Positions 2 through 19,947 of a stretch of DNA of 32,000 nucleotides are shown here, in pieces. Numbering within the stretch: position 1 is the first letter of the stretch; every line of letters begins with the position of its first letter. Below the pieces are notes generated by a model, which had not been told where the DNA came from, made no database searches, and saw nothing but the letters and a program-made list of their open reading frames with translations. The position numbers were made by a program, and so were the translations under genes. The DNA is from Candidatus Nanopusillus sp. (GTDB lineage: Archaea > Nanobdellota > Nanobdellia > Nanobdellales > Nanobdellaceae): assembly GCA_028276785.1 (NCBI GenBank), contig JAPYVP010000001.1:35401-67400 (forward strand), in the 5' to 3' direction.

Positions 2-694
2 GCAGGAGATATTGCGAAGGCAAAAGGAAAAAAATATGTAGAATCTGAAGATGTTATAGAAGCAAGAGAAAAAGCATTAACAATTGAAGAACAATTATCT
101 AAATACTATATTGAAAAAAAGAAAGAATATCAAATAATAAAAACTGAGGGATATGAAATTGGAAGGGTAAATGGTTTAGCGGTAATTGGATCAAGATTAT
201 ATTATTCAGGATTGGTATTACCTGTCGAAGCAGAAGTTGTACCTGGAGAAGGTAGTAAGGAAATTATTGCAACAGGAAATTTGGGAAAAATTGCAAAGGA
301 AGCAATAGTAAATGTATCTGCAGTAATAAAAAAGAAATTTGGAGAAGATTTGAAGAAATATAGAGTTCATGTTCAATTTTTGCAAACATATGAAGGTGTA
401 GAAGGAGATTCAGCTTCAATAACTGTTGCAACTGCAATAATATCTGCATTAAAAAATTGGCCGGTAAGACAAGATTTGGCAATGACAGGTTCTTTATCAA
501 TAAGGGGGGAAGTATTACCTGTTGGTGGTATAATAGCAAAAATAGAAGCAGCTATAGAATCTAAATTAAAAGAAGTTATAGTACCTGAAGGTAATTATAA
601 TGATATACCAGAAGATCTATTTGATAAAATAAGGATAACACCTGTAAAAACAATAGATGAAGTTATAGAAATTGCAACTGGTAGAAATATTTAA
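2..694 (+). CDS. lon: Archaeal Lon protease (LonB-type), C-terminal proteolytic domain; 5' end lies outside the window
   Basis: Frame 2 is open from the window edge ([26 protein letters not shown]...) into the listed ORF. Carries the Lon Ser-Lys dyad context [16 protein letters not shown] ... [24 protein letters not shown]. Confidence 0.9.
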
Positions 695-7188: not shown

Positions 7189-8025
7189 ATGTTTGCACAT
7201 GCTCAAGGTGAATATAATGAATCAAAATGGATAATTATTGGAATTCCATCAGAAATTGGTAGTTTATCACATGTAAAAAATTATATTGAAGGGCCTGAAT
7301 CCATTAGAGATGCATCTTACAGAATATTTTCTCCAATATTTGGGGAAATAAATATGGAAGATATATATGACTATGGAGATATAGATTTGGAAGATATAAA
7401 GGATCTGGATAAATTATATGAAAAAATATATAAAGAAATTAAAAAAATATATAGGAAAGATAAAAAGTACATATTTTTAGGAGGAGATCATTCAATAACA
7501 TATCCAATATTAAAAGTTATTAAAGAAAACTGGGGGGATTTTTACTTATTGTATTTTGATGCCCATCCAGATATTCACCCCGACCCATATCCAAATTATC
7601 AAAGTTTTATTTATCATTTAATAAAGGAAAATTATATTGAACCTGAAAAAATTATTTATGTTGGTATATCTAATTTATCGTTCGAAGAAAAAAATATAAT
7701 AAAGGAGTGGGTGATAAGATATTATAATCCTTTGGATGTTTGGGATAATATAAAAGAAATTTCAAAGGAGATATCAAATATATTAGAAAATAAAAATTTA
7801 TATATTTCAGTTGATATAGATGTATTTGATACAGGATGTGGACATTGGTTAGAAGGTATTGGAATCAGACCATATCATTATTTTAAGATTATAAAAGAAT
7901 TAAGAAATATAAATTTAATTGGTTTTGATTTAGTAGAATTATTTTCAAACGAAGTATGTGATAATTTGGCTGCAAAAATTGTCATTGAATCGATAGCAAT
8001 CTTTAATAAATCTATGCAATCATGA
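7189..8025 (+). CDS. speB: Agmatinase / ureohydrolase (arginase family)
   Basis: Metal-ligand motifs GGDHSITYP, FDAHPDIHPD and SVDIDVFD are present. 278 aa. The segment after DxDxxD (TGCGHWLEG) diverges from the usual P..aPG.g. Confidence 0.8.
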   Translation: MFAHAQGEYNESKWIIIGIPSEIGSLSHVKNYIEGPESIRDASYRIFSPIFGEINMEDIYDYGDIDLEDIKDLDKLYEKIYKEIKKIYRKDKKYIFLGGDHSITYPILKVIKENWGDFYLLYFDAHPDIHPDPYPNYQSFIYHLIKENYIEPEKIIYVGISNLSFEEKNIIKEWVIRYYNPLDVWDNIKEISKEISNILENKNLYISVDIDVFDTGCGHWLEGIGIRPYHYFKIIKELRNINLIGFDLVELFSNEVCDNLAAKIVIESIAIFNKSMQS

Positions 8026-8659
8026 AATGTGTTTGATTAATTCTTTTTACATATACTGTTACAAGTTGATAAAATGTAATATTATTTACTGAATAACATG
8101 GTATGTAATTACATATAATATTTCCATTTGTATTTTCTGTACATGTTATATTTCCATATAAATTTGTTGGAAATAAAAATACAAAAGTTTGATTTGAAGT
8201 ATTTTTATTACTCAAACAAAAACTATATAAGAAATAATAAAAGTCTGAATAATAATTTTTACATATGGTAAATTTGATATAATCTAAAGAATAATATACT
8301 GAAATTGGATACGTATATGTATTACAATTTCCATTGAAATTTATAATTCCAAAACTATAATTACCAATTTCTGCTCTAAATGTATAGGGAAATATTGTAC
8401 AATTTGGAAGCATATTATAATATGTTTGATTGAATTGCCTTATTTTTTCCATTGTTGTGAAGTATATTGGATAATTTGGATATCCTATACAATTTGGAGA
8501 AAATAGGTTGTATATTATTTCTTGTTGATATGAAAAAGAAGTTTGTTCTTTATAATTTGTTAAATTAATGCTAGAAAATATCGCTAATAAAAGTATCATA
8601 CCTAATAAAAATAATACAGTTAATATTGTTATAAATACTATGGAAAATTGTCCTTTCAT
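8012..8659 (-). CDS. Pilin-like secreted protein, Cys-rich (215 aa); last gene of the operon
   Basis: N-terminus MKG|QFSIVFITILTVLFLLGMILLLAIF matches the archaeal class III signal pattern (K-G|Q plus hydrophobic helix). 9 Cys and several N-x-S/T sequons. Confidence 0.6.
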   Translation of the reverse strand: MKGQFSIVFITILTVLFLLGMILLLAIFSSINLTNYKEQTSFSYQQEIIYNLFSPNCIGYPNYPIYFTTMEKIRQFNQTYYNMLPNCTIFPYTFRAEIGNYSFGIINFNGNCNTYTYPISVYYSLDYIKFTICKNYYSDFYYFLYSFCLSNKNTSNQTFVFLFPTNLYGNITCTENTNGNIICNYIPCYSVNNITFYQLVTVYVKRINQTHFMIA

Positions 8660-8667
8660 CTTTTATA

Positions 8668-9903
8668 TTAGAGATAATCTTTTATACATTCCTCTGGAAA
8701 TGGTATTGTTTCTGGGCATGTTGGGTTGTTAGGACATTGTCCAGGTAAACATACTGGACATTCTTCTCCACCAATTATACACATATAGCATTCAACTGGG
8801 ATTGAATAATAATATGGGAATGTAAATATTATTTTTGAATCTTCTCTACTTATGCTTACATCACCACATCCATCTATTGCGGAACATGAATATTTTTGAT
8901 CTTGTAATGTACAACTTTTCGATATTGCTTCTTTATTTGTTTCGTTGTATATTCCCGTACAACTATATATACAATTTAGATAATATTTGTTTGTTACATT
9001 TTCATAAAAAACTATTGAAGTAATAGTTATGGATTGTGGATATGTATTCCCATTATAATATACATTATATCTATTATCAGAACATTTTAATATTACTCTA
9101 CAAGCAATTTCTCTAGGATATAAACATATTTCACATAATGGAATATCCACACACTTATGTGGGATTATTGTTTCGTTACATTGAATATACGGATTATTTG
9201 AAAATTGTTCAAATCTCCTTGCACAATTATTGGTTGTAACATTATTAAATAATGTATTTACACAATCTTGAAAAGAACATTCGGGAAATTCTTCTAAAGA
9301 AAATTGGTATGCTAGATTATATAAATAAAATGCTGGATTGTTTGTTATATTTGATGTAGATGCATAGGGAATTATTGAACCAGAGGAAGGTCCAGTAATA
9401 TTTATATATACTCCTTGAACATAAACAGGAAAGTTATAATTATATTTTCCGGAATATATATCATCACATGTTCCTAGAATACCAGCTCGATAATTATTTG
9501 AAAAATTGAAAGATATATTATATGGATGATAGTATCTATATGCAAACAAATATTGTTCCCCATAACTTATTAAGCTTGTAAATCCAGAAGTTAGCAAATT
9601 ATTGTAATATTGAATCGCATTTTCACATGGTTGTGGTAATATACACTGAGGAGGAAAAGAAGCCCAGTTTTCTTTTCCCCAACCACTTGTTCCTGCTACA
9701 TAAGATTTTGCATAACCCTCCTGTGTTAGTGCTGTTTGTAAATATCCTAAAAGGTAGTTTGATAAAGTTGATAAAGATGTAAATCTACCAAAAACAACAT
9801 TCTGATTATAATTATATGTTAATGCATAAAAAGATAGAAGAATTATTAATATAGAAACTGTCAAAAATAGAACTACATAAATACTTTCTGTTTGATTTCT
9901 CAT
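8668..9903 (-). CDS. Large Cys-rich pilin-like secreted protein (411 aa)
   Basis: MRN|QTESIYVVLFLTVSILIILLSFYAL N-terminus. About 24 Cys, including a C-terminal cluster CYMCIIGGEECPVCLPGQCPNNPTCPETIPFPEEC. Many sequons. 4-nt overlap with the upstream gene. Confidence 0.6.
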   Translation of the reverse strand: MRNQTESIYVVLFLTVSILIILLSFYALTYNYNQNVVFGRFTSLSTLSNYLLGYLQTALTQEGYAKSYVAGTSGWGKENWASFPPQCILPQPCENAIQYYNNLLTSGFTSLISYGEQYLFAYRYYHPYNISFNFSNNYRAGILGTCDDIYSGKYNYNFPVYVQGVYINITGPSSGSIIPYASTSNITNNPAFYLYNLAYQFSLEEFPECSFQDCVNTLFNNVTTNNCARRFEQFSNNPYIQCNETIIPHKCVDIPLCEICLYPREIACRVILKCSDNRYNVYYNGNTYPQSITITSIVFYENVTNKYYLNCIYSCTGIYNETNKEAISKSCTLQDQKYSCSAIDGCGDVSISREDSKIIFTFPYYYSIPVECYMCIIGGEECPVCLPGQCPNNPTCPETIPFPEECIKDYL

Positions 9904-11105
9904 AATTTTAATTTAACATGAAGGTATATAAGTGTTAATATAATCATTGTTACTACCAATCCATGTATTATACCTAGTATTTTCATTATATTTGGTATAG
10001 ATAATATACTTAATGGAGGACCTCCATATACTGCAAATTCTAGTAACTCTCCAATTACAACTTGTATTATAAGTAATATTCCAATTGTAATACCAATAGC
10101 TTTTTTAATTGGTTTTTTAACATTACTAAATAGTTTATAATGTATTCCCATGAAGAAAAATATCATAGCCATAAGATATCTTGTATGTAGAGCATAAGAA
10201 GTAAAATCTTTATATGATGTAAATAATGCGCCCAAAAATATTATCAAGACCATAGTAAATAGTAAGAAGTAATTTGTGAAATGATCATTTTTCATGCTCT
10301 TATAAATTAAGAAATAAATAATAAATTCAAATATGGATAAAAATATAAGAGCTTTATATACAGTAATCTGATATTTTACAATTAAACCCTCTGAAGCTAG
10401 ATTACTATAAGATGATAACCCGTATATAGCTATAATAAGTTGTAATATTATAATAAAAAATATTAATAAAAATATGTACTTTTTATATTTATAAATTTCT
10501 GATAATTTTTTGAATATTTTTGTTCTTACTATAAGTATTTCATTGCCATTAGAATATACAATCAGAAATAGAAATATGGCAAATACAATAAACAAAGTTG
10601 AATATAATATTTTGAAAGTATAAATATTTGATAATGCAAAATTAATGATTGAACCAACTATAGGCCCTGTTGCTACTTCTAAATCTATGGTTATAACGTT
10701 GATTACCAATTCAAGGAAAAATAGTATTATAAATAAAACTAAAGAAAGCACATAAAATATTAAAGATTTTTTTGAAATATAAAAGTTATTTTCAAATAAA
10801 TAATATCCTAGAGCAAATGCTATAAAGTAAAATATCCAATAATTTATTGAAAGACCAAGTGATAAACGTACTAATAAAGGCCAATCTTGATAATAGAGAG
10901 TTCCAAAAATTATAAATGGTATAAGTAAAAATACTGACTTATATATCAAAGAAGTATTCTTCGAATTTTTTAATATAAAAGATAATAAAAATAGATATAT
11001 TGTACCAAAGATAATTATGTTAATATTAAATTTACTATCAAAAGTAAAAAATAAGAATATTAATAGATATAAAAGAAATAAAATTTTATCTTGTTTTTTT
11101 ACCAT
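9900..11105 (-). CDS. Polytopic integral membrane protein of unknown function (401 aa, roughly 10 or more TM segments)
   Basis: Almost entirely hydrophobic segments separated by short K/N/S loops. Embedded in the operon with overlaps at both ends (7 and 4 nt). No GxGD prepilin-peptidase motif and no recognisable family. Confidence 0.6.
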   Translation of the reverse strand: MVKKQDKILFLLYLLIFLFFTFDSKFNINIIIFGTIYLFLLSFILKNSKNTSLIYKSVFLLIPFIIFGTLYYQDWPLLVRLSLGLSINYWIFYFIAFALGYYLFENNFYISKKSLIFYVLSLVLFIILFFLELVINVITIDLEVATGPIVGSIINFALSNIYTFKILYSTLFIVFAIFLFLIVYSNGNEILIVRTKIFKKLSEIYKYKKYIFLLIFFIIILQLIIAIYGLSSYSNLASEGLIVKYQITVYKALIFLSIFEFIIYFLIYKSMKNDHFTNYFLLFTMVLIIFLGALFTSYKDFTSYALHTRYLMAMIFFFMGIHYKLFSNVKKPIKKAIGITIGILLIIQVVIGELLEFAVYGGPPLSILSIPNIMKILGIIHGLVVTMIILTLIYLHVKLKL

Positions 11106-12727
11106 ACTGTTAATTTAGAAACAAGATATCCGCCTAGAAAAGGCATATCTACTGGCAAATATATGTAATATACATATATGTTTGTGTTTGGTGGTATTGG
11201 ATATCCTAAACTTACACTATTTTGACTACTTTGGTAAATATAAGCGTTTAATTCTTCTTTGTTTCCTGTATCGGTAATACAATATGCTCTTGCCATTGCA
11301 ACGCCATTTGATCCAGCATGTGGATCATAATATACTGCAGAAATTATAAACTGATTTGTATTTGGATCCCTATCATTTATTACCCATCTAGTAATATTAA
11401 ATCTATAAAATCCTTGAGCATATGTATTAATACCACCCAAGTAAACTAAAGGACACTCCTTTCCAACAATAATTCCGTTTATATTTTGTATATCATTGTA
11501 TACACCAGTTGGACATCTTATTGTTCTTCCATTTATTTTATATTCACACAAAGGATCTGCTGCTAAAAATACATAATCTGGTTGTCCATTTTTATTTAAA
11601 TAAGAAATATATAGAGCTACTGTTTCATGCCATGGATAATCTATAAATACTTGTTGACAATTTGGTAGTATATTTACTATACCTCTATAAAAAGATCCTA
11701 CAACTAATACCTGACCACCCCCACAAAGGGAATTACCTGTATATCTTGTACCAAATTCTTGTTGACATGCTGCATCTAAATATTCTCTTGGGATTATAAA
11801 ATCTGCTAGTCTATTTATGTCAGTAGCAGTTTTATAAACAGGAGGACCTTGATAATAATAAGGTGTAGAGGTTAAATATTGATTATTAGTTGCTGGACAA
11901 GATCCTGTATATATGCATAAGAATCCAGAAAATAAATTTGGTAAGTTAGATACTGGATGAGCTGGCGTACCACCTACACCTAAAAAATTTGGAAATAAAT
12001 GCCATTCACTATTGGGGCAATATACAGAAGCTTCAGTAAAATTATGATTTGGAAGTATTCTTGATAGAGGTTCACAATATCCTAATCGTATGGCTATTTC
12101 TTGTGATTGTTGTGGATAAAATGATTGTAAGCCCCATGCATTTGTTGATAATGTTTGATGAAAAGGTGCTGTTGCATTGACCCATCCAGCTCCATATATA
12201 GTTAGGCTTACTGGTATATCAATATTCTGTGTATAATTATTTGTAAAGAAATACGTATAATTCCATTCATACCATTGTTTGCCATTTTGATCTGGTGGAG
12301 GTCTCATTGAACATGGATCCCAATTATTTATATTGCCAGCTACTATGAACATCTGGACAATCCATCCAGTTATTGGTGGTACAAAATATATTGTAAGGTT
12401 CCATCTATTTCCATATATACTATTGAAATAATTTGTTATAGTCTGCGATATATTTGTACATATATTTTGATTTATGCAGTATGTATCGTTTCCAGAAGAT
12501 GAAAAATAAGATAATAAAAATGCGTAGGATAAGTTAACTTTATTATCATTAACATATGATAATAAAACAATACTATTCTGGATTGTTAGTGTGTATTGAT
12601 TTTCTACATTATATGTTTGCATTGTTCTTTGATTATAGTTACTTGATATTAAGGTATATAATAGAACTAATAATGATATTATTGAAATTATAATAACAAA
12701 TGTTATAGTATTTATTTGGTTTCTCAT
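11099..12727 (-). CDS. Large Cys-rich pilin-like secreted protein (542 aa)
   Basis: MRN|QINTITFVIIISIISLLVLLYTLI N-terminus. About 14 Cys, G/P/Y/N-rich globular part, sequons. 4-nt overlap with the upstream gene. Confidence 0.6.
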   Translation of the reverse strand: MRNQINTITFVIIISIISLLVLLYTLISSNYNQRTMQTYNVENQYTLTIQNSIVLLSYVNDNKVNLSYAFLLSYFSSSGNDTYCINQNICTNISQTITNYFNSIYGNRWNLTIYFVPPITGWIVQMFIVAGNINNWDPCSMRPPPDQNGKQWYEWNYTYFFTNNYTQNIDIPVSLTIYGAGWVNATAPFHQTLSTNAWGLQSFYPQQSQEIAIRLGYCEPLSRILPNHNFTEASVYCPNSEWHLFPNFLGVGGTPAHPVSNLPNLFSGFLCIYTGSCPATNNQYLTSTPYYYQGPPVYKTATDINRLADFIIPREYLDAACQQEFGTRYTGNSLCGGGQVLVVGSFYRGIVNILPNCQQVFIDYPWHETVALYISYLNKNGQPDYVFLAADPLCEYKINGRTIRCPTGVYNDIQNINGIIVGKECPLVYLGGINTYAQGFYRFNITRWVINDRDPNTNQFIISAVYYDPHAGSNGVAMARAYCITDTGNKEELNAYIYQSSQNSVSLGYPIPPNTNIYVYYIYLPVDMPFLGGYLVSKLTVW

Positions 12728-13581
12728 TTTAGATAATATAATAGCATAAATAGGCCTATTATTACTATAATTATAACTATTGCTGCTGGCAAAATCAAAT
12801 TAACGTTGTTGTTGTTATTAGTACTTACATTTGGTTGTGGATAAATTAATTGTTGGTTATTATTTGTTAAATTTACTTCAGTTTGATTTATACATTCAAA
12901 TACGCCAGTACAAGATATATAAACAATATTTGGTGGTGGACATTTTTGTAGAAATTCTTGATATAATTGATTTAATGAATAATTGTATGGACATCTAAAC
13001 CAGTTACCTTGGAAAGATAGATTTTCTGGACAATAACCACAGCCGTAAAAATTATGGTAGTATGATAATAGTTGCTGATAGGATTCATTACCTGCTAAGT
13101 AAGAAGGTGGTATATATGGGGGATCAAAACAAGGGTAAATTTGATTAGAACATGGTGGATAATACCAAGGCATATTTGGACAATTTAATAGACTATCACA
13201 TAATGTTTGATTCTCCTCTGGTATAATTACATCTTGATATGCAGATGGAGGAATTAATAGATATGGACTAACTAATGTACCGTTTGGATATTTACAATAA
13301 CTGCTATTTACATATATCAATCCATAACGAGTACAAAATGAATACTCTGGAGGTACATTATTTTCATAATATTGTAGAGCATCAAAATATGTATTATTTA
13401 TAATACAATAGACACCTGTATCATTTGTATAATAAGTTCCTCCACCATATTCACAATAAACTGCTATTGGATTTTTCATAGAATATATACTATTCATAGA
13501 GTATATGTATATAATATATAAAAAAATTATAAAAATAATTATAATAAGTGCTAATAAATTTCTATTTTGCGAGAGTAACAT
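12724..13581 (-). CDS. Cys/Pro-rich surface protein with DUF333-like module, N-terminal hydrophobic helix and C-terminal TM anchor (285 aa)
   Basis: KNPIAVYCEYGGGTYYTNDTGVYCIINNTYFDALQYY resembles the DUF333 pattern NPA..YC...GG.......G.C. 14 Cys. Pro-rich stretch CPNMPWYYPPCSNQIYPCFDPPYIPPSY. C-terminal LILPAAIVIIIVIIGLFMLLYYLK. Confidence 0.55.
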   Translation of the reverse strand: MLLSQNRNLLALIIIIFIIFLYIIYIYSMNSIYSMKNPIAVYCEYGGGTYYTNDTGVYCIINNTYFDALQYYENNVPPEYSFCTRYGLIYVNSSYCKYPNGTLVSPYLLIPPSAYQDVIIPEENQTLCDSLLNCPNMPWYYPPCSNQIYPCFDPPYIPPSYLAGNESYQQLLSYYHNFYGCGYCPENLSFQGNWFRCPYNYSLNQLYQEFLQKCPPPNIVYISCTGVFECINQTEVNLTNNNQQLIYPQPNVSTNNNNNVNLILPAAIVIIIVIIGLFMLLYYLK

Positions 13582-15118
13582 TTTGTATTGCTACAATTGA
13601 AAACTTAGGAAATGATAGGCCGAAAGGCGACTGCTCAAATGGTATGTATATGTATCCATCTTGCATCCAATAAACCCCTCCACAAGGTGCTCCCATTGCA
13701 GTGCTGCAAGCTCGATAATTTGAATAATATTTATAGCACTCACTTTTACTACGAGTTATCATACGCATTCTACCATCTGAAGTAAAAGCTAAGCATCCTG
13801 TTACACGTCCCCAAGAATTTTGAATTATCCAACATTTTGGAGTTCCATATACTTCTTGACATAGTTGGGATTGTGTATCATATCCAACCAACAGCATAGC
13901 ATGACCCGTATCACCTACAAAATATAAAGGATACATGTTTGGATTAGATCCGCCCTCTCCAGCCATATAGCCACTAACCGTCAATGGTCCATAACACAGT
14001 AAATATTGAATTATTTCCTGACTTGATAGAGACTTCCCTCTTTGAACTAATTCCATAACTTTGTGTGAATAATACATTGGTGAAGTAGGTCCATTATAAT
14101 CAAAACCACATACATCATCAGGATAACTGATGGCATCGTCATTCGTACTACATCCTTTTAAAGTAGAACTATAATATCTTCGTCCAGGATCTGCTGGTAT
14201 ACCATATTGAGATGTATATAGTATACCGTAGTATGGCAAACCACCATTACAACCTATATTATGTTCACAATATTTTGGAGTATTTGGATATCTATAATTG
14301 CACTTTATTGCTATGTATGCGGCAGATAATGTTAATCCTTCATTAGGTTTATTATTTCTTATCATATAGATTGCAGCAATCCCGTTTGAAGATGCAAATG
14401 CCCAATAGTCTCCACAAACCCCTTGATCGCCTACTGGAGGTAAATAATTATTCCCATCTACATCACCCCAGAAAAATTTTGGTTGTCCAGTATATTTAAC
14501 TAAACATCTACTATTTGGGTCAATAGTATTATTAGTTTGATTAGTTTGATTTGTATTATTGTTATTTGTTTGATTGGTATTATTTGTCTGATTAGTCTGA
14601 TTATTTTGATTATTATTATTATTCTGATTTTGATTATTGTTATTATTTTGATTATTATCTGGATTTATAACTATAATAGTCCCGTTAGGCAAATATCGAT
14701 TAAATATAAAAATTGTATCATTAAAATCTGCAGAAATAAAAATAGTATTATTTGTACTAACCAAATATATATAATTATTTGGATATAAAAAACTTACATT
14801 TTGACCATTATTGTATAAAATTACGGATTTATTTTGAAAATTAATCGTATAATTATTATTATTATATTGGATTATTAATTCGTTGTCTCTTGAATATAAT
14901 ATAATTCCACTTGGTATATCAACTTTTATATAATATGTACCTTGCATATTATTTATTGTATCCTGTAAATTTTGTAAATTATTGACAAAATTTTCAAATA
15001 TGAATTTTTCTTGTTCCCTTTTAACATTTGTAGAATATTGATAATAAATTAAGAAAGATAATGATACGATTAATAATATTATTGCTACTGAAAGCAAATT
15101 TAACTGATTCTTTTTCAT
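13562..15118 (-). CDS. Pilin-like N-terminus + small beta-rich module + N/Q/T linker + papain-fold (peptidase C1-like) domain with Cys-to-Tyr at the nucleophile position (518 aa)
   Basis: MKKN|QLNLLSVAIILLIVSLSFLIYY. C1 motifs GDQGVCGDYWAFAS (papain QGSCGSCWAFS), GCNGGLPYYG, GHAMLLVGYD and WIIQNSWG. Gln, His and Asn are conserved, but the nucleophile codon is TAT (14405-14407, minus strand) instead of TGT/TGC. Confidence 0.75.
   Translation of the reverse strand: MKKNQLNLLSVAIILLIVSLSFLIYYQYSTNVKREQEKFIFENFVNNLQNLQDTINNMQGTYYIKVDIPSGIILYSRDNELIIQYNNNNYTINFQNKSVILYNNGQNVSFLYPNNYIYLVSTNNTIFISADFNDTIFIFNRYLPNGTIIVINPDNNQNNNNNQNQNNNNNQNNQTNQTNNTNQTNNNNTNQTNQTNNTIDPNSRCLVKYTGQPKFFWGDVDGNNYLPPVGDQGVCGDYWAFASSNGIAAIYMIRNNKPNEGLTLSAAYIAIKCNYRYPNTPKYCEHNIGCNGGLPYYGILYTSQYGIPADPGRRYYSSTLKGCSTNDDAISYPDDVCGFDYNGPTSPMYYSHKVMELVQRGKSLSSQEIIQYLLCYGPLTVSGYMAGEGGSNPNMYPLYFVGDTGHAMLLVGYDTQSQLCQEVYGTPKCWIIQNSWGRVTGCLAFTSDGRMRMITRSKSECYKYYSNYRACSTAMGAPCGGVYWMQDGYIYIPFEQSPFGLSFPKFSIVAIQNVTLAK
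14525..14659 (-). repeat. Imperfect short tandem repeats encoding an N/Q/T low-complexity linker
   Basis: Encodes DNNQNNNNNQNQNNNNNQNNQTNQTNNTNQTNNNNTNQTNQTNNT. The plus strand shows reiterated TTGATTAGT / TTGATTATT-type units. Confidence 0.7.
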
Positions 15119-15157
15119 TATGATCTATTAATATCTAAAAAATTTTTTAAAATTTTT

Positions 15158-15598
15158 TTAACTTGGGTTTTCTATATAAATTGTTACATCTGTTGGAGAT
15201 GTTTTTTTAACAAGCAATGGTATTTTTTGATTTGGACTCCCACGTGACAATTCATAGAATAATCCGGAAGTATAATATTGAATCATATTATTTGTTGTAT
15301 TTATTATTACATTGCAAGGCACTGTATAATTATAATATTTGTCATATATGTAACAACTTAGTAAATTACCATTACTATATATATAATTTAGATATTTGTT
15401 TATTTCAATAGTAATATGAAATTCTGTTCCATTATTGGAATAGCACGCTCTTTCAACTGTTGTATATAAATTTTGACATGAAGATATATTTTTATATAAT
15501 AATTGAGTCTCATTATTTATGCCTACAAATTTAAAATATAAATATAAAGATAAACCAAAAGCAACAATTGCTATAATTATCCAAAACCACTTTTCCAT
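15158..15598 (-). CDS. Small pilin-like / signal-anchored secreted protein (146 aa)
   Basis: MEKWFWIIIAIVAFGLSLYLYF N-terminal helix, 4 Cys, sequons. Member of the run of four small genes. Separated from the next downstream gene by the only gap over 10 nt in the operon (39 nt). Confidence 0.55.
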   Translation of the reverse strand: MEKWFWIIIAIVAFGLSLYLYFKFVGINNETQLLYKNISSCQNLYTTVERACYSNNGTEFHITIEINKYLNYIYSNGNLLSCYIYDKYYNYTVPCNVIINTTNNMIQYYTSGLFYELSRGSPNQKIPLLVKKTSPTDVTIYIENPS

Positions 15599-15600
15599 CT

Positions 15601-16014
15601 TTATCCTTGAATATTAATATAAACATAATTTCCTGCCGAATAAATTAATATATACTTTCCAGGATTTATATTATAATTACAATTTTGCATTACAACATTC
15701 GGATCTATGCTGTTTACTTTATTTATTAAATCTTGACATGTAAATGATGGTCCTTGATAATGAATCAAATAACATAAACCTTGGGCTTTTTTATAATAAC
15801 ATGATACTACATTCATTGCAACAGTTGTCATTGAATTTACATTTGTTTCTACTATAGTTTGTGTATTATTATATTTTGGCATTATGTTATCTACATATGA
15901 AGATACGTTCCCTCTTAATACAAATATTATTCCTATAATTGTTATGGTAACAATTATCCCGATAAATATTAAAAAAGTATAATTAATTGGAAGCTCTTGA
16001 ATTCTCATTGCCAT
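15601..16014 (-). CDS. Small pilin-like protein (137 aa)
   Basis: MAMRIQELPINYTFLIFIGIIVTITIIGIIFVL N-terminus, 4-5 Cys, C-terminal strand motif KYILIYSAGNYVYINIQG. Confidence 0.55.
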   Translation of the reverse strand: MAMRIQELPINYTFLIFIGIIVTITIIGIIFVLRGNVSSYVDNIMPKYNNTQTIVETNVNSMTTVAMNVVSCYYKKAQGLCYLIHYQGPSFTCQDLINKVNSIDPNVVMQNCNYNINPGKYILIYSAGNYVYINIQG

Positions 16015-16484
16015 ATTATAATATAACTATTGTTGTATATTATAAATATGCTGTTGTATGGATATATTCTTCCTTCACTATTATTTAAACGGAATATAAT
16101 TTTATTTGGATTAAATTTAGTATAATTTTGTACATATTGTATTAATGTTGTCGAATTTAGGACAATATTCTTATTTATATAAACATCATAACATATATCA
16201 AATAATTTATTTGTATTTACATTATTATTGTAACAATTTAATATTAATCCTACTATACTTGAATAAATTGTATCAATACTCTCATTTGAATATATAACAT
16301 TTATTGCAGAAGGATAATATTCTTTGCATGATGGGGAAAAACCGCCCTGTGATATTAATGTTTGACAATAATATGCTTGAGAATTACTAAAGAATTTTGT
16401 ATATATAATGCTTAATATAACTACGGCGGATATTATTGCTATTATTATTATAAATATAGTATCTATTGCTATGTCGTTCTTCAT
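16005..16484 (-). CDS. Small pilin-like protein (159 aa)
   Basis: MKNDIAIDTIFIIIIAIISAVVILSIIY N-terminus, 4 Cys, C-terminal motif NSIFIIYNNSYIIIWQ. 4-nt overlap upstream and 10-nt overlap downstream. Confidence 0.55.
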   Translation of the reverse strand: MKNDIAIDTIFIIIIAIISAVVILSIIYTKFFSNSQAYYCQTLISQGGFSPSCKEYYPSAINVIYSNESIDTIYSSIVGLILNCYNNNVNTNKLFDICYDVYINKNIVLNSTTLIQYVQNYTKFNPNKIIFRLNNSEGRIYPYNSIFIIYNNSYIIIWQ

Positions 16485-16765
16485 ATATAATGAATACTTC
16501 CGTTATAAATATATATAATTCTATAGCCAGAAGGTATTGTTATTCCATTTATTGTACAATTCTCACTAAGGAACACTTTAATATCAATTATTTCTCTAAA
16601 ACTTTTATCGTATAAATTTTTTAATTGCTGACAATTAATAGTTTGTATATTCTCTCCACCCAAATTATTTTTTACATTATAAATATAATAAAAAGAAAAT
16701 AGACTAGCAGCTACAATTAATATAAAGGTTATTATAATCCAATATATTGAATTTTGAAGTTTCAT
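16481..16765 (-). CDS. Small pilin-like protein (94 aa)
   Basis: MKLQNSIYWIIITFILIVAASLFSFYYIY N-terminus, 2 Cys, C-terminal motif YRIIYIYNGSIHYI. 4-nt overlaps on both sides. Confidence 0.55.
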   Translation of the reverse strand: MKLQNSIYWIIITFILIVAASLFSFYYIYNVKNNLGGENIQTINCQQLKNLYDKSFREIIDIKVFLSENCTINGITIPSGYRIIYIYNGSIHYI

Positions 16766-18732
16766 AATTTTATATCTGTTGGCAAATATGGGCCAAATAT
16801 TGTATATACTACTAATATTCCTACTATTGAAAATATTACATAAAATATTGTTCCAAACAGAAGATTCCTACCTATATAATATGAAGTCATTGTACTATCA
16901 AAGCCATATTTTATTCCAGCACTCATATATGATGTTATTATTACATATTCTATAAAAAATATGCCTATTATTGCTACAAAAAATGTTGGTGGTATTAAAT
17001 TATATAGATTAAATGTGGTTACAATAAAATTGAATAAACTAGATCCACCTCCCAGACCAAAAGATTGGCTTATCAATTGAAAGAAGTATGCAAGTGCAAA
17101 AAGCATTGAAACTATACCATTATTAAAAACTGTAACCATTGCAGAAATTAATGGTACTAGATTTCTTGATGTCATATCTATTAATCCAATTATTTCATTT
17201 AATATTTTTCTTACACTATATCTTATGTTGTTTACATTTTCTAAATTTGTTGATACGTTATATGCAATTTTTGATAAGGTTTCAGGACCCTTTGATGCAG
17301 AAGTAACCAAAAGTTGCATAGACTCTCTTACTAATTTTGATGGATATAAATTTAATGAACCAATTTTTGGATCAAATATAGATGTATTTAAATCATAACC
17401 CCTTCTTAAATTATATAATGTTGTTTTTAGGAAGTTTTCCATAACACCGGAAGATTTTATTATCTTATAATTATAATAGGTTTTTTCAATCACTATTTCA
17501 AATGGATAACCATCTTCTAATAGTGATGCAAATTCGTATACAACAATTGGAAACTCATTTTCTATTTCTTCAATTTCATATATTTTTTTAACTTTTTGGA
17601 AAGATGTCAAATAATAATAAGACCCAATACCTAAACCCAATCCCAGAGGTAATGTTAAAGTTAAAACAGAATATATTAATGCTCTATCTTGATAAACTAT
17701 ATTTAAATAATCACTTAAAAATCCTTGTGGGATAAGAGCAATTTTTATAGCTAAAGAAATTAAATGATAAATTCCTATAATTGCAATCGATCCCAATATT
17801 ATTGAAATTATTATTGCCGGAACTTCTTTATTTCCTAATTTAAATTTTCCAGGTTTTGGTAAATCCTTTGCTAATGATAAATCTGGAACGGCAAATGCAA
17901 ACGGATTTTTTGATAGAAAATTTTGAATTATTAAGAAGGTAATGACAGGTAGAATTATTATATACGAAAATGCTATGAAATAGAAACTTACAGTATTTAA
18001 CAAAAACACAGATATTATTGGTAACATCATCAAACTGACTATAGGCATCATTACTAAGAAAGATATAATAACTGTTGCCGGTTCTTTCAGAGCATCTACA
18101 TATGATTGGGATTTTTCTAAAGATTTCTTTAACACCCATCCTAATATTCTGTCTAATAATTTATTTATATCATCAATAGACGTTTTATATTTAATATTTA
18201 CAATATGTGTCATTGCATATACAAAATCTGGACTTAAATAAAACCATCTTCTCTGATAATATTCCAGTGCTGATTCAATATCTTTAAACTTACTTGTTTC
18301 TAAATTATATAATAATGATTTAAAGTCTGTTGCAATATAACCTTTCATATAATATGCTACATATTTTATTCCATTTTCTAGATTAGGATTTCTTTTTAGA
18401 TATAAAGATAAATATAATATTATCCATACAATTTCTGATGTTACCTGTATTCTAACAATTTGTGTATAGAATATTGGATAATATGCAAAATAGAATGATA
18501 ATATTAGTAAAGATATTAATAAAGAAAAAGCTAATTGAAAGCTTACAAAACTTAAAATAAGATATATAATTATAGAAAATATTGTTATAGTTATTACAGA
18601 GGAAAATATGTTATCTGGATTAGTATTTAATCTATTTAACCATAAATGAAATGCATATTTTTTATATATAGAATTGGGGGCTTTTATTTTTATTAAATTA
18701 AAATTATTGTAAAAATACTCAAAAAAATTCAT
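16762..18732 (-). CDS. FlaJ/ArlJ-TadC-PilC-like (T2SS-F superfamily) polytopic membrane platform protein (656 aa)
   Basis: Two soluble helical segments, each followed by TM bundles (about residues 110-215 and 395-520: ...SALEYYQRRWFYLSPDFVYAMTHIV... and ...FASLLEDGYPFEIVIEKT...LRRGYDLNTSIF...LVRESMQLLVTSASKGPETLSKIA...). This is the duplicated architecture of T2SSF/FlaJ proteins. Size and operon context fit. Assignment from architecture, not a computed alignment. Confidence 0.6.
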   Translation of the reverse strand: MNFFEYFYNNFNLIKIKAPNSIYKKYAFHLWLNRLNTNPDNIFSSVITITIFSIIIYLILSFVSFQLAFSLLISLLILSFYFAYYPIFYTQIVRIQVTSEIVWIILYLSLYLKRNPNLENGIKYVAYYMKGYIATDFKSLLYNLETSKFKDIESALEYYQRRWFYLSPDFVYAMTHIVNIKYKTSIDDINKLLDRILGWVLKKSLEKSQSYVDALKEPATVIISFLVMMPIVSLMMLPIISVFLLNTVSFYFIAFSYIIILPVITFLIIQNFLSKNPFAFAVPDLSLAKDLPKPGKFKLGNKEVPAIIISIILGSIAIIGIYHLISLAIKIALIPQGFLSDYLNIVYQDRALIYSVLTLTLPLGLGLGIGSYYYLTSFQKVKKIYEIEEIENEFPIVVYEFASLLEDGYPFEIVIEKTYYNYKIIKSSGVMENFLKTTLYNLRRGYDLNTSIFDPKIGSLNLYPSKLVRESMQLLVTSASKGPETLSKIAYNVSTNLENVNNIRYSVRKILNEIIGLIDMTSRNLVPLISAMVTVFNNGIVSMLFALAYFFQLISQSFGLGGGSSLFNFIVTTFNLYNLIPPTFFVAIIGIFFIEYVIITSYMSAGIKYGFDSTMTSYYIGRNLLFGTIFYVIFSIVGILVVYTIFGPYLPTDIKL

Positions 18733-18737
18733 TACCT

Positions 18738-19502
18738 TTAACTTGTTGCGGCTGGTATGTTAATTAACTGGTTGTATGGTACTCTCATCAAGAATTGACA
18801 TAGTGGCATACCGTTATCATTATTATTTATACCCAGTGCTGCACAATTTCCTGTTACTACTAATATTCCATTACTGACTATCAAGTTTAAATTACATCCA
18901 TGTGCACTATTATAATATTTAAGAACTTTTAACAGTGCAACGAATACTTGGTTTGTAATCCATGTTGGTAATTGTGCGGAACACTGTGCTGGACCTGGAT
19001 ATAATATCTGGGATGGAGAAGAAATGTAAATCGTTGCTTGTCCAGTTTCTACATTAAATGATGTGGTAGAAGAATAATTTCCAAATACATAACTTGTTGC
19101 TTGTACTGGACTATAATATAATGTATCAATGTAATGGCGACATGTTAAATACATACATGCTAATGGTGTTATTTGATATCCCTGATATTGACATTGACTA
19201 GAAGGACCTCCGTATAATTGCAATACTACACTACATGGAACTGCATTTGAACAGATATAATACCCAGGACTTGCTTGTACAAGCCCATTTCCTATGTTTT
19301 CATACCTTGTACAGAATGTTACTGGATCTTGTTGACAATAGTTTAAACAATTAGCAACTGCTTGTTGTATTTGTGTGTTGGATATTTGGCTAATATTTGA
19401 TGATTGTTGCTGAAATAGTCTAATTACAATAACCGCTACTACTAACATTATTATTATTACGAATATCAACTGTACAGCCATATCTATACCCCTTCTTTTC
19501 AT
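18738..19502 (-). CDS. Archaellin/type IV pilin-like protein, first gene of the operon (254 aa); candidate major filament subunit
   Basis: MKRRG|IDMAVQLIFVIIIMLVVAVIVIRLF resembles archaellin/pilin N-termini ((K/R)G| ... G(I/L)DTAIILIAFII). About 13 Cys. Q/A/G/S-richer composition than its neighbours. Confidence 0.6.
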   Translation of the reverse strand: MKRRGIDMAVQLIFVIIIMLVVAVIVIRLFQQQSSNISQISNTQIQQAVANCLNYCQQDPVTFCTRYENIGNGLVQASPGYYICSNAVPCSVVLQLYGGPSSQCQYQGYQITPLACMYLTCRHYIDTLYYSPVQATSYVFGNYSSTTSFNVETGQATIYISSPSQILYPGPAQCSAQLPTWITNQVFVALLKVLKYYNSAHGCNLNLIVSNGILVVTGNCAALGINNNDNGMPLCQFLMRVPYNQLINIPAATS

Positions 19503-19525: not shown

Positions 19526-19533
19526 TTTATAAA
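19526..19533 (-). promoter_or_regulatory. TATA box candidate for the 12-gene operon (leaderless or near-leaderless transcript)
   Basis: Minus strand TTTATAAA centred about 27 nt upstream of the ATG at 19502, in the 37-nt spacer after the DUF371 gene. Confidence 0.45.
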
Positions 19534-19539
19534 TGTTTT

Positions 19540-19947
19540 TCAGTAATATATAATAAATTTCATATCTTTTTCATACCTTAATCTTTCTATTATTTTTTTA
19601 TCAATATCAATAGCACTTTTATTTGAGTTTATCGCTAAGGTTCTATCATCAATATAATTACTTTTTCTTATAACAATACTTCTATCATTTGTTAATAATA
19701 AATTTCTTGAGCCATAAGCAATTATACTGTCTATTAAATCATCAACCTTAATTATAATCTTTATTTTTCCTTCATTTAATAAATGATCTTTAAGATCTTC
19801 CGGTAAATCCTTTACAGAATAGTTTGCATTTATACCAATTATACAATCTCCTCTCTCAGTTAGATAATTATCTTTAGTAATTTCTAAGGTGCTTTTATGT
19901 GTTGCTTTTATTAATTTATGCCCTTTAGCTTTTATTACTAATTTCAT
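19540..19947 (-). CDS. DUF371 family protein (archaeal conserved hypothetical)
   Basis: KGHKLIKATHKSTLEITKDNYLTERGDCIIGINAN ... IVIRKSNYIDDRTLAINSNKSA matches the remembered DUF371 pattern GH.ni.atHktTlEiTk...lt.rGdCIigv ... RtS.f.d.RT. Confidence 0.65.
   Translation of the reverse strand: MKLVIKAKGHKLIKATHKSTLEITKDNYLTERGDCIIGINANYSVKDLPEDLKDHLLNEGKIKIIIKVDDLIDSIIAYGSRNLLLTNDRSIVIRKSNYIDDRTLAINSNKSAIDIDKKIIERLRYEKDMKFIIYY

What the first reader, a model, noticed from the sequence alone, without database searches (positions are those of the whole stretch)
8012..19502. Twelve-gene, translationally coupled operon for a non-canonical type IV filament-like surface apparatus built from cysteine-rich pilin-like proteins
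Seen: 12 co-oriented minus-strand ORFs run from 19502 down to 8012. Junctions in transcription order are +5, -4, -4, -10, +2, +39, -20, -4, -7, -4 and +8 nt. A TTTATAAA sits about 27 nt upstream of the first ATG. Ten of the 12 products start with a 3-8 residue basic N-terminus followed directly by a hydrophobic helix of about 20 residues (MKRRG|IDMAVQLIFVIII, MKG|QFSIVFITIL, MRN|QTESIYVVLFL, MRN|QINTITFVIII, MKKN|QLNLLSVAIILL ...). These resemble class III (prepilin/prearchaellin)-like signals with a recurrent [KR]-[GN]-Q junction. Gene 2 is a 656-aa FlaJ/TadC-like polytopic protein and gene 10 is an unassigned 401-aa polytopic protein. The mature parts are N/Y/S/T-rich, loaded with N-x-S/T sequons and unusually Cys-rich (about 24 Cys in 411 aa, 14 in 285 aa). 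Established: type IV filament systems (archaella, Aap/Ups pili, the Sulfolobus bindosome) combine class III substrates with a FlaJ/TadC platform, a FlaI/PilB-type ATPase and a PibD/FlaK peptidase. Large globular proteins carrying class III signals have a precedent in bindosome sugar-binding proteins. Inference: this is a dedicated surface filament or adhesion machine. Its cargo set (papain-fold pseudoenzyme, DUF333-like module, three further Cys-rich proteins, four mini-pilins) matches none of the described archaellum, Aap, Ups or Bas operon layouts that I know. In a reduced-genome archaeon it is a plausible cell-cell or host attachment device.
Basis: partly seen in the sequence, partly recalled or inferred. 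Interest (0 to 1): 0.9.

Follow-up and report, generated by a model that had tools for sequence, protein, structure and literature searches.

The report
Nanoarchaeal pilus-like surface apparatus operon
A tiny symbiotic hot-spring archaeon (Candidatus Nanopusillus) carries a conserved 12-gene operon that looks like a stripped-down, heavily remodelled type IV pilus system, with no motor ATPase of its own and with a protease and several cysteine-rich surface proteins, which makes it a testable candidate for the still unidentified genes that let these cells attach to their host.

Summary
Twelve co-oriented minus-strand genes (19502-8012) have exactly the stated junctions. Ten carry an N-terminal hydrophobic helix. 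The ectodomains have about 7x more Cys and about 5x more N-glycosylation sequons than the window's other proteins.

Gene 2 has no direct Pfam or NCBIfam hit. It is still a divergent FlaJ/TadC/GspF-type platform. Distant homologues hit T2SSF, and five of five sit directly after a T2SSE ATPase. Its AF2 model matches the EpsF and OutF cytoplasmic domains.

Gene 1 is a canonical class III pilin, with G, S or A at -1 in six orthologues. Six other genes keep only a degenerate M-[KR]-x-Q motif. Q is invariant there, but -1 is N/S/G/A/E/Y/L/I/V. Gene 8 is not pilin-like.

No ATPase or A24 peptidase lies in the window or in about 125 kb of orthologous loci. The papain "pseudoenzyme" is strain-specific, because every relative keeps the catalytic Cys.

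The operon is syntenic across Nanopusillaceae, including cultured YN1. The genes for YN1's attachment organelle are unknown.

Verdict: a new variant of a known kind (type IV filament systems). Interest about 0.6.

The parts
19526..19533 (-). TTTATAAA, a candidate TATA box about 27 nt upstream of the gene 1 ATG. It lies in the 37-nt spacer after the DUF371 gene.
   Evidence: The motif is not enriched overall (8 matches against 9.7 expected), so only its position is suggestive. An identical box sits about 27 nt before ORF 30499.
18738..19502 (-). Gene 1, 254 aa. Class III-signal pilin-like protein (MKRRG|IDMAVQLIF...) with 12 conserved Cys. Candidate polymerising subunit.
   Evidence: The -1 residue is G, G, G, S, A, A in six orthologues. 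hhalign against a canonical KRGQ pilin of a Woesearchaeota ATPase-platform locus gives prob 90%, E 1.5e-6 over 90 columns. JGI names the L007 orthologue 'pseudopilin PulG'. There is a weak GspG hit, E 0.015.
16762..18732 (-). Gene 2, 656 aa. Divergent FlaJ/TadC/GspF-type polytopic platform protein with two repeats and no Cys.
   Evidence: It has no direct Pfam or NCBIfam hit. Four of 13 family members hit T2SSF, best E 2.7e-7, and P0095 carries PF00482. Five of five informative distant homologues follow a T2SSE ATPase with overlapping genes. The AF2 model has pLDDT 85. Foldseek matches EpsF 3c1q_A (prob .99) and OutF 5nbg_A (prob .98). An internal repeat is detected at E 6e-5. The protein is as conserved as RNA polymerase.
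16481..16765 (-). Gene 3, 94 aa. Mini pilin-like protein (MKLQ...), 2 Cys.
   Evidence: Q is kept in 6 of 7 orthologues (L014 has MKG|E). The -1 residue is L, L, L, N, S, N, G. There is a weak class-III NCBIfam hit, E 0.069.
16005..16484 (-). Gene 4, 159 aa. Mini pilin-like protein (MKND|IAIDT...), 4 Cys.
   Evidence: The N-terminus resembles the gene 1 G|IDMAV type.
15601..16014 (-). Gene 5, 137 aa. Mini pilin-like protein (MAMRIQ...; orthologues MKNQ and MKSQ), 4 Cys.
15158..15598 (-). Gene 6, 146 aa. Small N-terminally anchored protein with 4 Cys. The motif is lost here (MEKWFW) but present in L014 (MRNQVEKFLW). In YN1 this N-terminal module is fused to the papain domain.
13562..15118 (-). 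Gene 7, 518 aa. A pilin-like N-terminal module (MKKNQ plus a TM helix), an N/Q/T-rich linker and a papain-family (C1) domain. The catalytic Cys is replaced by Tyr in this strain only (codon 14405-14407).
   Evidence: Peptidase_C1 hit, E 6e-17. PDB matches to cathepsin L and DPP1. Orthologues and the nearest representatives keep CGDCWAF, CGNCWA or CGSCWAF. The TAT codon is shown.
12724..13581 (-). Gene 8, 285 aa. A signal peptide or anchor, a DUF333-like Cys module, a Cys/Pro-rich region and a C-terminal TM anchor. It is a type I membrane protein, not a pilin.
   Evidence: DUF333 scores 16.8 bits here. The L007 paralogue scores 22.6 bits, E 1.3e-4, against a cut-off of 25. The C-terminal hydrophobic tail is shown.
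11099..12727 (-). Gene 9, 542 aa. A pilin-like N-terminal module (MRNQ) and a large Cys-rich, sequon-rich ectodomain of unknown fold.
   Evidence: The N-terminal module is homologous to those of gene 11 (prob 90%, 92 columns) and gene 7 (prob 94%, 35 columns). No Pfam or PDB match.
9900..11105 (-). Gene 10, 401 aa. Lineage-specific polytopic membrane protein with about 12 helices, no Cys and four invariant His (307, 322, 381, 396).
   Evidence: The AF2 model has pLDDT 53 and is unusable. No PDB or Pfam match.
8668..9903 (-). Gene 11, 411 aa. A pilin-like N-terminal module (MRNQ) and an ectodomain with 24 Cys.
   Evidence: No Pfam or PDB match.
8012..8659 (-). Gene 12, 215 aa. MKG|QFS N-terminus (orthologues MKEQ and MKNQ), 8 Cys. 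It is the last gene, and its 3' end overlaps the convergent arginase-family gene by 14 nt.

Best explanation
The operon encodes the membrane and surface part of a remodelled type IV filament (T4P/TFF-like) system of Nanopusillaceae.

Gene 2 is the FlaJ/TadC-type platform. Gene 1 is the one pilin with a conventional class III cleavage site and is the likely polymerising subunit. Genes 3-6 are small pilin-like accessory or 'minor pilin' proteins.

Genes 7, 9, 11 and 12 carry a homologous pilin-derived N-terminal helix module fused to large ectodomains. These ectodomains are predicted to be disulfide-bonded and N-glycosylated. One is a papain-type cysteine protease, active in relatives and Cys-to-Tyr here. 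The others are probable adhesins.

Gene 8 (type I anchored, DUF333-like) and gene 10 (polytopic, four invariant His) are lineage-specific accessories.

The hexameric ATPase is inferred to be supplied in trans by one of the orphan secretion ATPases reported for nanoarchaea. The ancestral arrangement in other DPANN archaea was ATPase-platform-pilins in one operon.

The inferred role is to build a short pilus or pseudopilus, or a pilin-anchored surface complex. That structure would display adhesins and a protease towards the host cell envelope.

Shown: gene order, homologies, conservation and composition. Inferred: assembly, ATPase partnership, cleavage and the host-contact role.
For: Platform identity.
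- Transitive homology to T2SSF.
- An ATPase sits immediately upstream, with overlapping genes, in five of five informative distant homologue loci. An A24 peptidase is nearby in L001.
- The fold matches the EpsF and OutF cytoplasmic domains.
- There is an internal duplication.
- Conservation equals that of RNA polymerase subunits.

Pilins.
- Gene 1 always has G, S or A at -1.
- Gene 1 aligns to a canonical KRG|Q pilin of L009 at prob 90%.
- JGI labels an orthologue PulG.
- L009 and L011 show the same plan of a platform followed by 8-9 small, Cys-containing pilin-like genes.
- The M-[KR]-x-Q motif of genes 3, 5, 7, 9, 11 and 12 lines up with the K/R-G|Q of those pilins.
- The N-terminal modules of genes 7, 9 and 11 are homologous.

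Extracytoplasmic fate.
- All ten proteins have an even number of Cys, and most counts are conserved in orthologues.
- Cys is enriched 7x and sequons about 5x.

Operon-level evidence.
- The operon is fully syntenic in seven Nanopusillaceae genomes, down to 55% gene 2 identity.
- The ectodomain genes evolve fastest.

Literature.
- Nst1 encodes 3 clade-2, 1 clade-4 and 1 archaellum ATPase, and the clade-4 (subclade 4F) ATPase is reported with 'cognate pilins not identified' (PMC4858521; for the text, for the ATPase counts).
- Nanoarchaeota are thought to have T4P systems in addition to the archaellum (PMC6142677).
Against: - No T2SSE ATPase and no A24 peptidase is found in the window or in about 125 kb of orthologous loci.
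- An A24 peptidase was reported undetectable in two nanoarchaeal genomes (PMC4858521).
- In six of the putative pilins the -1 residue is freely variable (N/S/G/A/E/Y/L/I/V). This argues against canonical processing, and so against incorporation into a filament.
- Gene 2 itself fails the Pfam and NCBIfam T2SSF models, and the Foldseek E-values for the full-length query are weak.
- No pilin family model hits any gene above threshold.
- PDB profile searches of genes 1, 9, 11 and 12 found nothing.
Confidence: 0.55

Rival explanations
1. This is a non-filamentous surface complex. The proteins are ordinary uncleaved N-terminal signal-anchor (type II) glycoproteins displayed on the nanoarchaeal membrane under the S-layer. 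Gene 2 is a relic platform retained as a membrane scaffold or chaperone. No ATPase-driven polymerisation takes place.
For: - The operon and its flanks hold no ATPase or peptidase.
- The -1 position is degenerate in most members.
- An A24 peptidase is reported missing in nanoarchaea.
- N-terminal single-TM 'hypothetical external' proteins are common in Nanoarchaeota (PMC6142677).
- There is a precedent in FlaF and FlaG, archaellin-derived proteins that stay membrane-anchored (own knowledge; the stator-by-duplication idea appears in the preprint read).
Against: - Gene 2 is as conserved as RNA polymerase and keeps both cytoplasmic GspF-like domains, the ATPase-docking parts. That is hard to explain for a relic.
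- Gene 1 keeps a strictly small -1 residue in six lineages.
- Q at +1 is invariant or nearly so across the motif-bearing groups, which implies a constraint exactly at the would-be cleavage site.
Confidence: 0.25
2. This is a bindosome-like or T2SS-like pseudopilus system. A short, non-protruding pseudopilus of genes 1 and 3-6 positions or releases functional cargo (the protease and the Cys-rich binding proteins) in or through the S-layer. It is not a long adhesive pilus.
For: - Large globular proteins carry pilin-like N-termini.
- Distant papain-type relatives have canonical class III N-termini, for example P0226 with MRKG|IAIL. Pilin-anchored C1 proteases therefore form a wider class.
- The Sulfolobus bindosome is a precedent (own knowledge; PMC4858521).
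Against: - No substrate-binding-protein domains or Bas-type components were detected.
- The ATPase and peptidase gaps are the same as for the main explanation.
- The available tools cannot distinguish this from the main explanation.
Confidence: 0.12
3. This is chance clustering or mis-called ORFs in an AT-rich genome, and there is no functional unit.
For: - AT-rich genomes produce long spurious ORFs and hydrophobic, N/Y/I-rich translations.
- TTTATAAA is not enriched.
Against: - All 12 ORFs are conserved in order and length in seven genomes down to 25-55% identity. Cys counts and motifs are conserved too.
- The proteins are present in public protein collections in clusters of 10 to more than 100 members.
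Confidence: 0.01

Closest known systems
DPANN/euryarchaeal-type archaeal type IV pilus loci (ATPase, then TadC/FlaJ-like platform, then several small K/R-G|Q pilins). Examples are the Woesearchaeota locus L009 and the Aenigmatarchaeota locus L011. Classified in Makarova et al. 2016 (PMC4858521) and in the 2026 TFF preprint.
   Same: The platform is homologous (25-29% identity, E 1e-23 to 1e-65). It is followed by a string of small N-terminal-helix proteins that contain paired cysteines. Gene 1 is homologous to one of those pilins. The genes overlap in the same way.
   Different: - The ATPase gene is absent from the operon, and a pilin gene occupies the position upstream of the platform.
- The cleavage motif is degenerate in most members.
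- There are four large ectodomain fusions, including a papain-type protease.
- There are two extra membrane proteins (genes 8 and 10).
- No A24 peptidase is nearby.
Thermoproteales T4P systems of subclade 4E (Makarova et al. 2016)
   Same: They are hyperthermophile T4P loci in which 'almost all components contain multiple conserved cysteines'. They combine small minor pilins, one or two large putative adhesin or minor-pilin proteins, and extra polytopic membrane proteins.
   Different: Those loci contain their own ATPase and a FleN/MinD regulator. No sequence similarity to them was detected here, and none has a protease fusion.
Sulfolobus bindosome (Bas) system
   Same: It uses class III or pilin-like N-termini on large functional globular proteins that are assembled at the cell surface by a T4P-like platform.
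   Different: Bas substrates are sugar-binding proteins, and the locus encodes BasE (ATPase) and BasF. No SBP domains and no ATPase are found here.
Archaellum stator proteins FlaF/FlaG (ArlF/ArlG)
   Same: They are filament-subunit-derived proteins that keep the N-terminal helix as a membrane anchor rather than polymerising. They are a possible analogue for the motif-degenerate members.
   Different: No sequence similarity was detected. The separate archaellum operon (FlaBDEHIJF) lies elsewhere in these genomes (PMC11420986).
Papain family (MEROPS C1) cysteine proteases
   Same: Gene 7 residues 224-461 match PF00112 at E 6e-17. The Gln, His and Asn of the active site are conserved.
   Different: The domain is N-terminally fused to a pilin-like membrane module. 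The catalytic Cys is replaced by Tyr in this strain only.

Membership tests
Type IV filament (T4P/TFF) system | Polytopic platform protein of the GspF/PilC/TadC/FlaJ family | tested here: met
   Met only by remote evidence. Gene 2 has no direct PF00482 hit. Four of 13 family members hit T2SSF, best E 2.7e-7, and P0095 (E 2e-53 to gene 2) carries PF00482. Five of five distant homologues follow a T2SSE ATPase. Foldseek matches the EpsF and OutF cytoplasmic domains at prob .98-.99. An internal two-repeat structure is detected.
Type IV filament (T4P/TFF) system | Secretion ATPase (GspE/PilB/FlaI, PF00437) encoded with the platform | tested here: not met
   No T2SSE hit among the window ORFs scanned. 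tblastn with three DPANN ATPases against the window plus six orthologous loci (156 kb in all) gave only noise, E above 0.8. ATPases exist elsewhere in the close relative Nst1 according to the PMC4858521 supplement. The whole genome could not be scanned here.
Type IV filament (T4P/TFF) system | At least one substrate with a class III signal: a basic leader, G/A/S at -1, then a hydrophobic helix of about 20 aa | tested here: met
   Gene 1 reads MKRRG|IDMAVQLIFVIII. The -1 residue is G, G, G, S, A, A in six orthologues. It is homologous to a canonical pilin of L009.
Type IV filament (T4P/TFF) system | The other nine N-terminal-helix proteins are also class III substrates | tested here: inconclusive
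   Genes 3, 5, 7, 9, 11 and 12 share M-[KR]-x-Q, with Q invariant or nearly so at the +1 position of DPANN K/R-G|Q pilins. Their -1 residue is N/S/G/A/E/Y/L/I/V. Only about 30% of the sampled sites have G, A or S (my tally). Gene 6 lacks the motif in six of seven genomes. Gene 8 looks like a Sec-type signal or anchor with a C-terminal TM segment.
Type IV filament (T4P/TFF) system | Prepilin (class III signal) peptidase of family A24 in the genome | not testable with these tools
   None is found in the window or in the orthologous loci. Gene 10 and ORF 29016-29831 lack a GxGD motif and invariant Asp residues. The literature reports that none was detected in two nanoarchaea (PMC4858521).
Pfam T2SSF (PF00482) | Score above the gathering threshold for the protein itself | tested here: not met
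   Gene 2 has no T2SSF hit at E up to 0.1 in Pfam or NCBIfam.
Peptidase C1 (papain family), active enzyme | C1 domain plus the catalytic Cys-His-Asn residues and the oxyanion Gln | tested here: not met
   The domain is present at 62.9 bits against a cut-off of 20.7. Gln, His (GHAMLLVGY) and Asn (NSWG) are present. The catalytic Cys is Tyr (CGDYWAF, TAT codon at 14405-14407). Orthologues in L005, L006, YN1, L014 and L015, and all nearest representatives, have the Cys.
DUF333 (PF03891) | Score above the gathering threshold | tested here: inconclusive
   Gene 8 scores 16.8 bits, E 0.0086. The L007 paralogue scores 22.6 bits, E 1.3e-4, over profile positions 2-46 of 47. The cut-off is 25.
Archaellum operon | Archaellin (FlaB), FlaH, FlaI, FlaF/G and FlaJ | tested here: not met
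   No archaellin, FlaH or FlaI family hit in any of the 12 proteins. A separate FlaBDEHIJF set is reported for YN1 (PMC11420986).
Sulfolobus bindosome (Bas) | Class III-signal solute-binding proteins plus BasE and BasF | tested here: not met
   No SBP domain and no ATPase.

The most novel reading that the evidence does not exclude
The operon encodes the long-sought structural and assembly genes of the Nanobdellota attachment organelle, or of its roughly 8-nm filament that displaces the host S-layer. On this reading it is a T4P-derived machine that has lost its own ATPase gene and has relaxed the classical G-1 cleavage rule. That would imply an unrecognised signal peptidase, or assembly of unprocessed subunits. 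The machine would push a disulfide-stapled, glycosylated filament towards the host membrane, carrying a papain-type protease and adhesins.
Probability: 0.15. Interest if true: 0.9.

Novelty: new variant of a known kind. Interest (0 to 1): 0.6.

Why it matters
Since 2002 nobody has identified the genes by which nanoarchaea attach to and tap their hosts. Cryo-ET papers from 2024-2026 on YN1, N. aerobiophila and YN4 describe a cone, a portal, a filament and nanotubes. [quoted passage not shown]

The 2016 census of archaeal T4P systems found secretion ATPases in nanoarchaea, reported the cognate pilins of one of them as not identifiable, and found no prepilin peptidase.

This operon supplies several missing pieces:
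- a missed platform protein, annotated 'hypothetical' in every source;
- one canonical pilin;
- a family of pilin-derived surface proteins, including a protease.

It is perfectly conserved in the family that includes the cultured strains. That gives concrete targets for antibodies, proteomics and sub-tomogram work.

It also offers a natural experiment on what happens to class III signals when the -1 Gly constraint is lifted.

Tried and rejected
- Direct Pfam and NCBIfam scans of all 12 proteins found only Peptidase_C1 above threshold.
- PDB sequence and profile searches for genes 1, 2, 9, 10, 11 and 12 found nothing significant.
- The AF2 model of gene 10 had pLDDT 53 and was not used. This used the last structure job, so no pilin model could be made.
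- I considered gene 10 as a divergent A24 peptidase and rejected it. It has no GxGD motif, and D141 and D300 are not invariant at 29% identity.
- I considered ORF 29016-29831 as an A24 peptidase and rejected it.
- Extending the contig through edge proteins failed because those proteins are not on record.
- The genome-collection scan with the deep alignment failed. The shallower alignment returned only Nanopusillaceae plus one Woesearchaeota locus.
- Homologue searches for genes 1 and 10 found only Nanopusillaceae sequences.
- Supplement searches returned nothing: YN1 locus tags, YN4 locus tags, and Nst1 proteins of matching length in the truncated Makarova tables.
- Wurch 2016 does not mention pili.
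- Archaellum and bindosome membership were rejected (see the membership test).
- The Ca. Nanopusillus massiliensis locus (L010) is too fragmented by frameshifts to be informative.

Full report
**Source and observation.** The window comes from a Candidatus Nanopusillus sp. MAG (Nanoarchaeota/Nanobdellota). It has about 25% GC and lies on a 67.4-kb contig. A palindromic TTTATAAA lies at 19526-19533, centred about 27 nt upstream of the gene 1 ATG. The octamer is no more frequent than chance in this AT-rich window, with 8 matches against 9.7 expected. Only its position supports a promoter. An identical box sits at the same distance from ORF 30499.

Ten products begin with a short stub followed by a hydrophobic helix. 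Six of them, and no other ORF in the window, have an M-[KR]-x-Q start. The ten non-polytopic proteins contain 3.6% Cys against 0.49% in the other window proteins. They carry 2.5 N-x-S/T sequons per 100 aa against 0.53. All ten Cys counts are even, and most are conserved among orthologues. The two polytopic proteins have no Cys. This pattern fits disulfide-bonded, glycosylated ectodomains.

**Gene 2.** The 656-aa protein gives no T2SSF hit in Pfam or NCBIfam and no PDB sequence match. All sources annotate it as hypothetical or as a putative membrane protein. Four independent lines nevertheless place it in the GspF/PilC/TadC/FlaJ superfamily.
- Its homologue family includes a protein that carries PF00482 (P0095, E 2e-53, 98% coverage). 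Four of 13 members hit T2SSF when scanned individually, best E 2.7e-7.
- In all five distant-homologue loci with upstream sequence (L001, L009, L011, L012, L013) the gene directly follows a T2SSE ATPase gene and overlaps it. L001 also has a Peptidase_A24 gene nearby. L009 and L011 continue with 8-9 small genes, several with canonical K/R-G|Q class III N-termini and paired cysteines.
- An AF2 model (pLDDT 85, pTM 0.83) matches the cytoplasmic domains of EpsF (3c1q_A, prob 0.99, target TM 0.64) and OutF (5nbg_A, prob 0.98, target TM 0.74), and also the PilC model of the T4aP machine. The full-length E-values are weak.
- The two halves of the protein are homologous to each other (hhalign E 6e-5), as in this family.

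Gene 2 is as conserved as RNA polymerase subunits. Its identity across six genomes is 93, 92, 78, 77, 63 and 55%, against 93, 96, 80, 80, 68 and 60% for RpoB''.

**The pilin-like proteins.** I compared seven Nanopusillaceae loci: the window, L005, L006, L007, YN1 (L004/L008), L015 and L014.

Gene 1 has MK(R/K)R-[G/S/A]|(I/V/L)(D/E)MA(V/I)(Q/E)L. The -1 residue is always small, as expected for a class III site. It aligns to the canonical pilin of the Woesearchaeota ATPase-platform locus at prob 90%, E 1.5e-6, over 90 columns that extend beyond the TM helix. JGI calls the L007 orthologue 'type II secretory pathway pseudopilin PulG'.

Genes 3, 5, 7, 9, 11 and 12 conserve a Gln, invariant in five of the six groups, exactly where DPANN pilins have the +1 Gln of K/R-G|Q. 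The preceding residue is N, S, G, A, E, Y, L, I or V. By my tally, G, A or S occupy only about 30% of the sampled sites. Characterised A24 peptidases need G, A or S at this position (own knowledge), so canonical processing of these six is doubtful.

The remaining proteins depart from the pattern:
- Gene 4 has an MKND|IAID start that resembles gene 1.
- Gene 6 has lost the motif, although L014 keeps MRNQVEKFLW.
- Gene 8 is a type I membrane protein. It has an N-terminal signal, a near-threshold DUF333-like module (22.6 bits in a paralogue against a cut-off of 25) and a C-terminal TM anchor.

The N-terminal modules of genes 7, 9 and 11 are homologous. The modules are shuffled between species. 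In YN1 the gene 6 module is fused to the papain domain, while the gene 7 module stands alone.

**The protease.** Gene 7 has a genuine Peptidase_C1 domain (E 6e-17; cathepsin L and DPP1 in the PDB). In this window the catalytic Cys is Tyr (CGDYWAF, TAT codon at 14405-14407). Every orthologue (L005, L006, YN1, L014, L015) and every near representative in an exhaustive search of 1.8 billion proteins keeps the Cys, as CGDCWAF, CGNCWA or CGSCWAF. More distant relatives (P0224-P0226) also carry pilin-like N-termini, and P0226 has a canonical MRKG|IAIL. At family level this is therefore an active protease anchored by a pilin-like module. The pseudoenzyme state is a single-nucleotide peculiarity of this strain, or an error.

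**What is missing.** No T2SSE ATPase and no A24 peptidase is present in the window or within +/-10 kb of the platform gene (gene 2) in six other genomes. Published work fills part of the gap.
- Nst1, whose gene 2 orthologue falls in the same 90% cluster, has three clade-2 ATPases, one clade-4 and one archaellum ATPase. [quoted passage not shown] No A24 peptidase was found in two nanoarchaea (PMC4858521).
- Jarett et al. inferred two T4P systems plus an archaellum and four FlaJ/TadC homologues (PMC6142677).

The operon thus plausibly supplies the missing pilins and an unrecognised platform for an ATPase encoded elsewhere.

**Gene 10.** This gene is restricted to Nanopusillaceae and evolves fast. 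It has about 12 predicted helices. Its invariant polar residues cluster in the last 100 residues: H307-T-R, H322, G352-E353..E356, H381-G and H396. The two His pairs each lie 15 residues apart on one predicted helix. This resembles a bis-His haem or metal site, but the AF2 model is unusable and nothing in Pfam or the PDB matches. It is not an A24 peptidase.

**Interpretation.** The best reading (about 0.55) is a remodelled type IV filament system whose ATPase acts in trans. It has one canonical pilin (gene 1), four small accessory pilin-like proteins, and four large ectodomain proteins on pilin-derived anchors. One of the four is a protease, and the others are probable adhesins. Two lineage-specific membrane proteins complete the set.

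The main rival (about 0.25) is that most members are simply uncleaved membrane-anchored surface proteins organised around a scaffold, as FlaF and FlaG are in the archaellum. A bindosome-like or pseudopilus variant (about 0.12) cannot be separated from the main reading with these tools.

The pattern of conservation points to interaction with something that varies, most plausibly the host envelope. The core platform is as slow as RNA polymerase, while the ectodomain genes 7, 8 and 11 and the membrane protein gene 10 evolve fastest.

**Relation to known biology.** The operon is syntenic in cultured YN1 (around YN1_4460). YN1 builds a cone, portal and filament attachment organelle. A filament of about 8 nm that displaces the host S-layer is described for the related YN4. 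The YN4 preprint calls the nanotube genes 'still unknown', and the papers read assign no genes to the cone, portal or filament. I found no paper describing this gene set. A link to the organelle is only a hypothesis (about 0.15), but it is directly testable.

**Verdict.** This is a new variant of a known kind (archaeal T4P/TFF systems), not a categorically new machine. Interest is about 0.6.

Noticed in passing
window 9900-11105 (-), gene 10: A lineage-specific membrane protein with about 12 helices. Four His are invariant down to 29% identity (307, 322, 381, 396). They form two pairs, each 15 residues apart on one predicted helix, alongside an invariant HTR and GE..E. This is reminiscent of a bis-His haem or metal site. 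The protein has no Cys, although the operon's ectodomains carry 100 Cys in total.
   Followed up: partly
window 14405-14407 (-): The single TAT (Tyr) codon that replaces the catalytic Cys of the papain domain is unique to this strain. It is one transition away from TGT. This exact protein sequence is also the only operon product queried that is absent from the protein collection. It could be a real inactivation, a polymorphism or an assembly error.
   Followed up: partly
L008 (YN1) 13201-16741; L007 13201-15920: Modules are shuffled between species. The gene 6 N-terminal module is fused to the papain domain (579 aa in YN1). The gene 7 N-terminal module stands alone (141-143 aa). An extra short DUF333-like paralogue of gene 8 is present.
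   Followed up: partly
P0224, P0225, P0226: More distant papain-family relatives from unknown organisms also start with a pilin-like helix, followed by a Cys-rich linker. P0226 has a canonical MRKG|IAIL. 'Pilin-anchored C1 proteases' may therefore be a wider, undescribed class.
   Followed up: no
window 719-4981 (+): A 1420-aa protein with a Sec-type signal peptide (MKKIYLLSFLLFSLYSIFSQG), 54 N-x-S/T sequons and 25 Cys. It has no Pfam hit and is conserved in Nanopusillus (a cluster of 10 members). It is a candidate S-layer or giant surface protein, 3 kb beyond the operon's end.
   Followed up: no
window 19540-20776 (-): A RimK-type ATP-grasp gene and a DUF371 gene, overlapping by 23 nt, lie immediately upstream of the operon on the same strand in all seven loci. 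They are divergent from rpoH and the RNA polymerase operon. It is unknown whether they are co-transcribed with, or functionally linked to, the operon.
   Followed up: no
window 15119-15157 (-): The only sizeable intergenic gap in the operon is 39 nt, before gene 7. It is almost pure A/T (AAAAAATTTTAAAAAATTTTTTAGATATTAATAGATCATA) and could hold an internal promoter. The fast-evolving 'cargo' half of the operon starts here.
   Followed up: no
window 29016-29831 (+): A 271-aa polytopic membrane protein with no family match is inserted between the ribosomal protein S12 and S7 genes, an unusual place for a membrane protein gene.
   Followed up: partly
window 7189-8025 (+) and 30499-30984 (+): An arginase/agmatinase-family gene and a pyruvoyl-dependent arginine decarboxylase gene suggest that a polyamine (agmatine) pathway is retained in this reduced genome. 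The former converges on gene 12 and overlaps it by 14 nt. A T5 run lies about 35 nt past the gene 12 stop codon.
   Followed up: no
L010 (Ca. Nanopusillus massiliensis OV100765.1): The syntenic region is shattered into dozens of short ORFs, and the RNA polymerase genes are affected too. This points to frameshift errors in that assembly rather than pseudogenisation.
   Followed up: no
window 31008-31835 (-) and 212-694 (+): A tyrosine recombinase (Phage_integrase, XerA-like) lies near the right edge of the window. A Lon protease C-terminal domain lies at the left edge.
   Followed up: no
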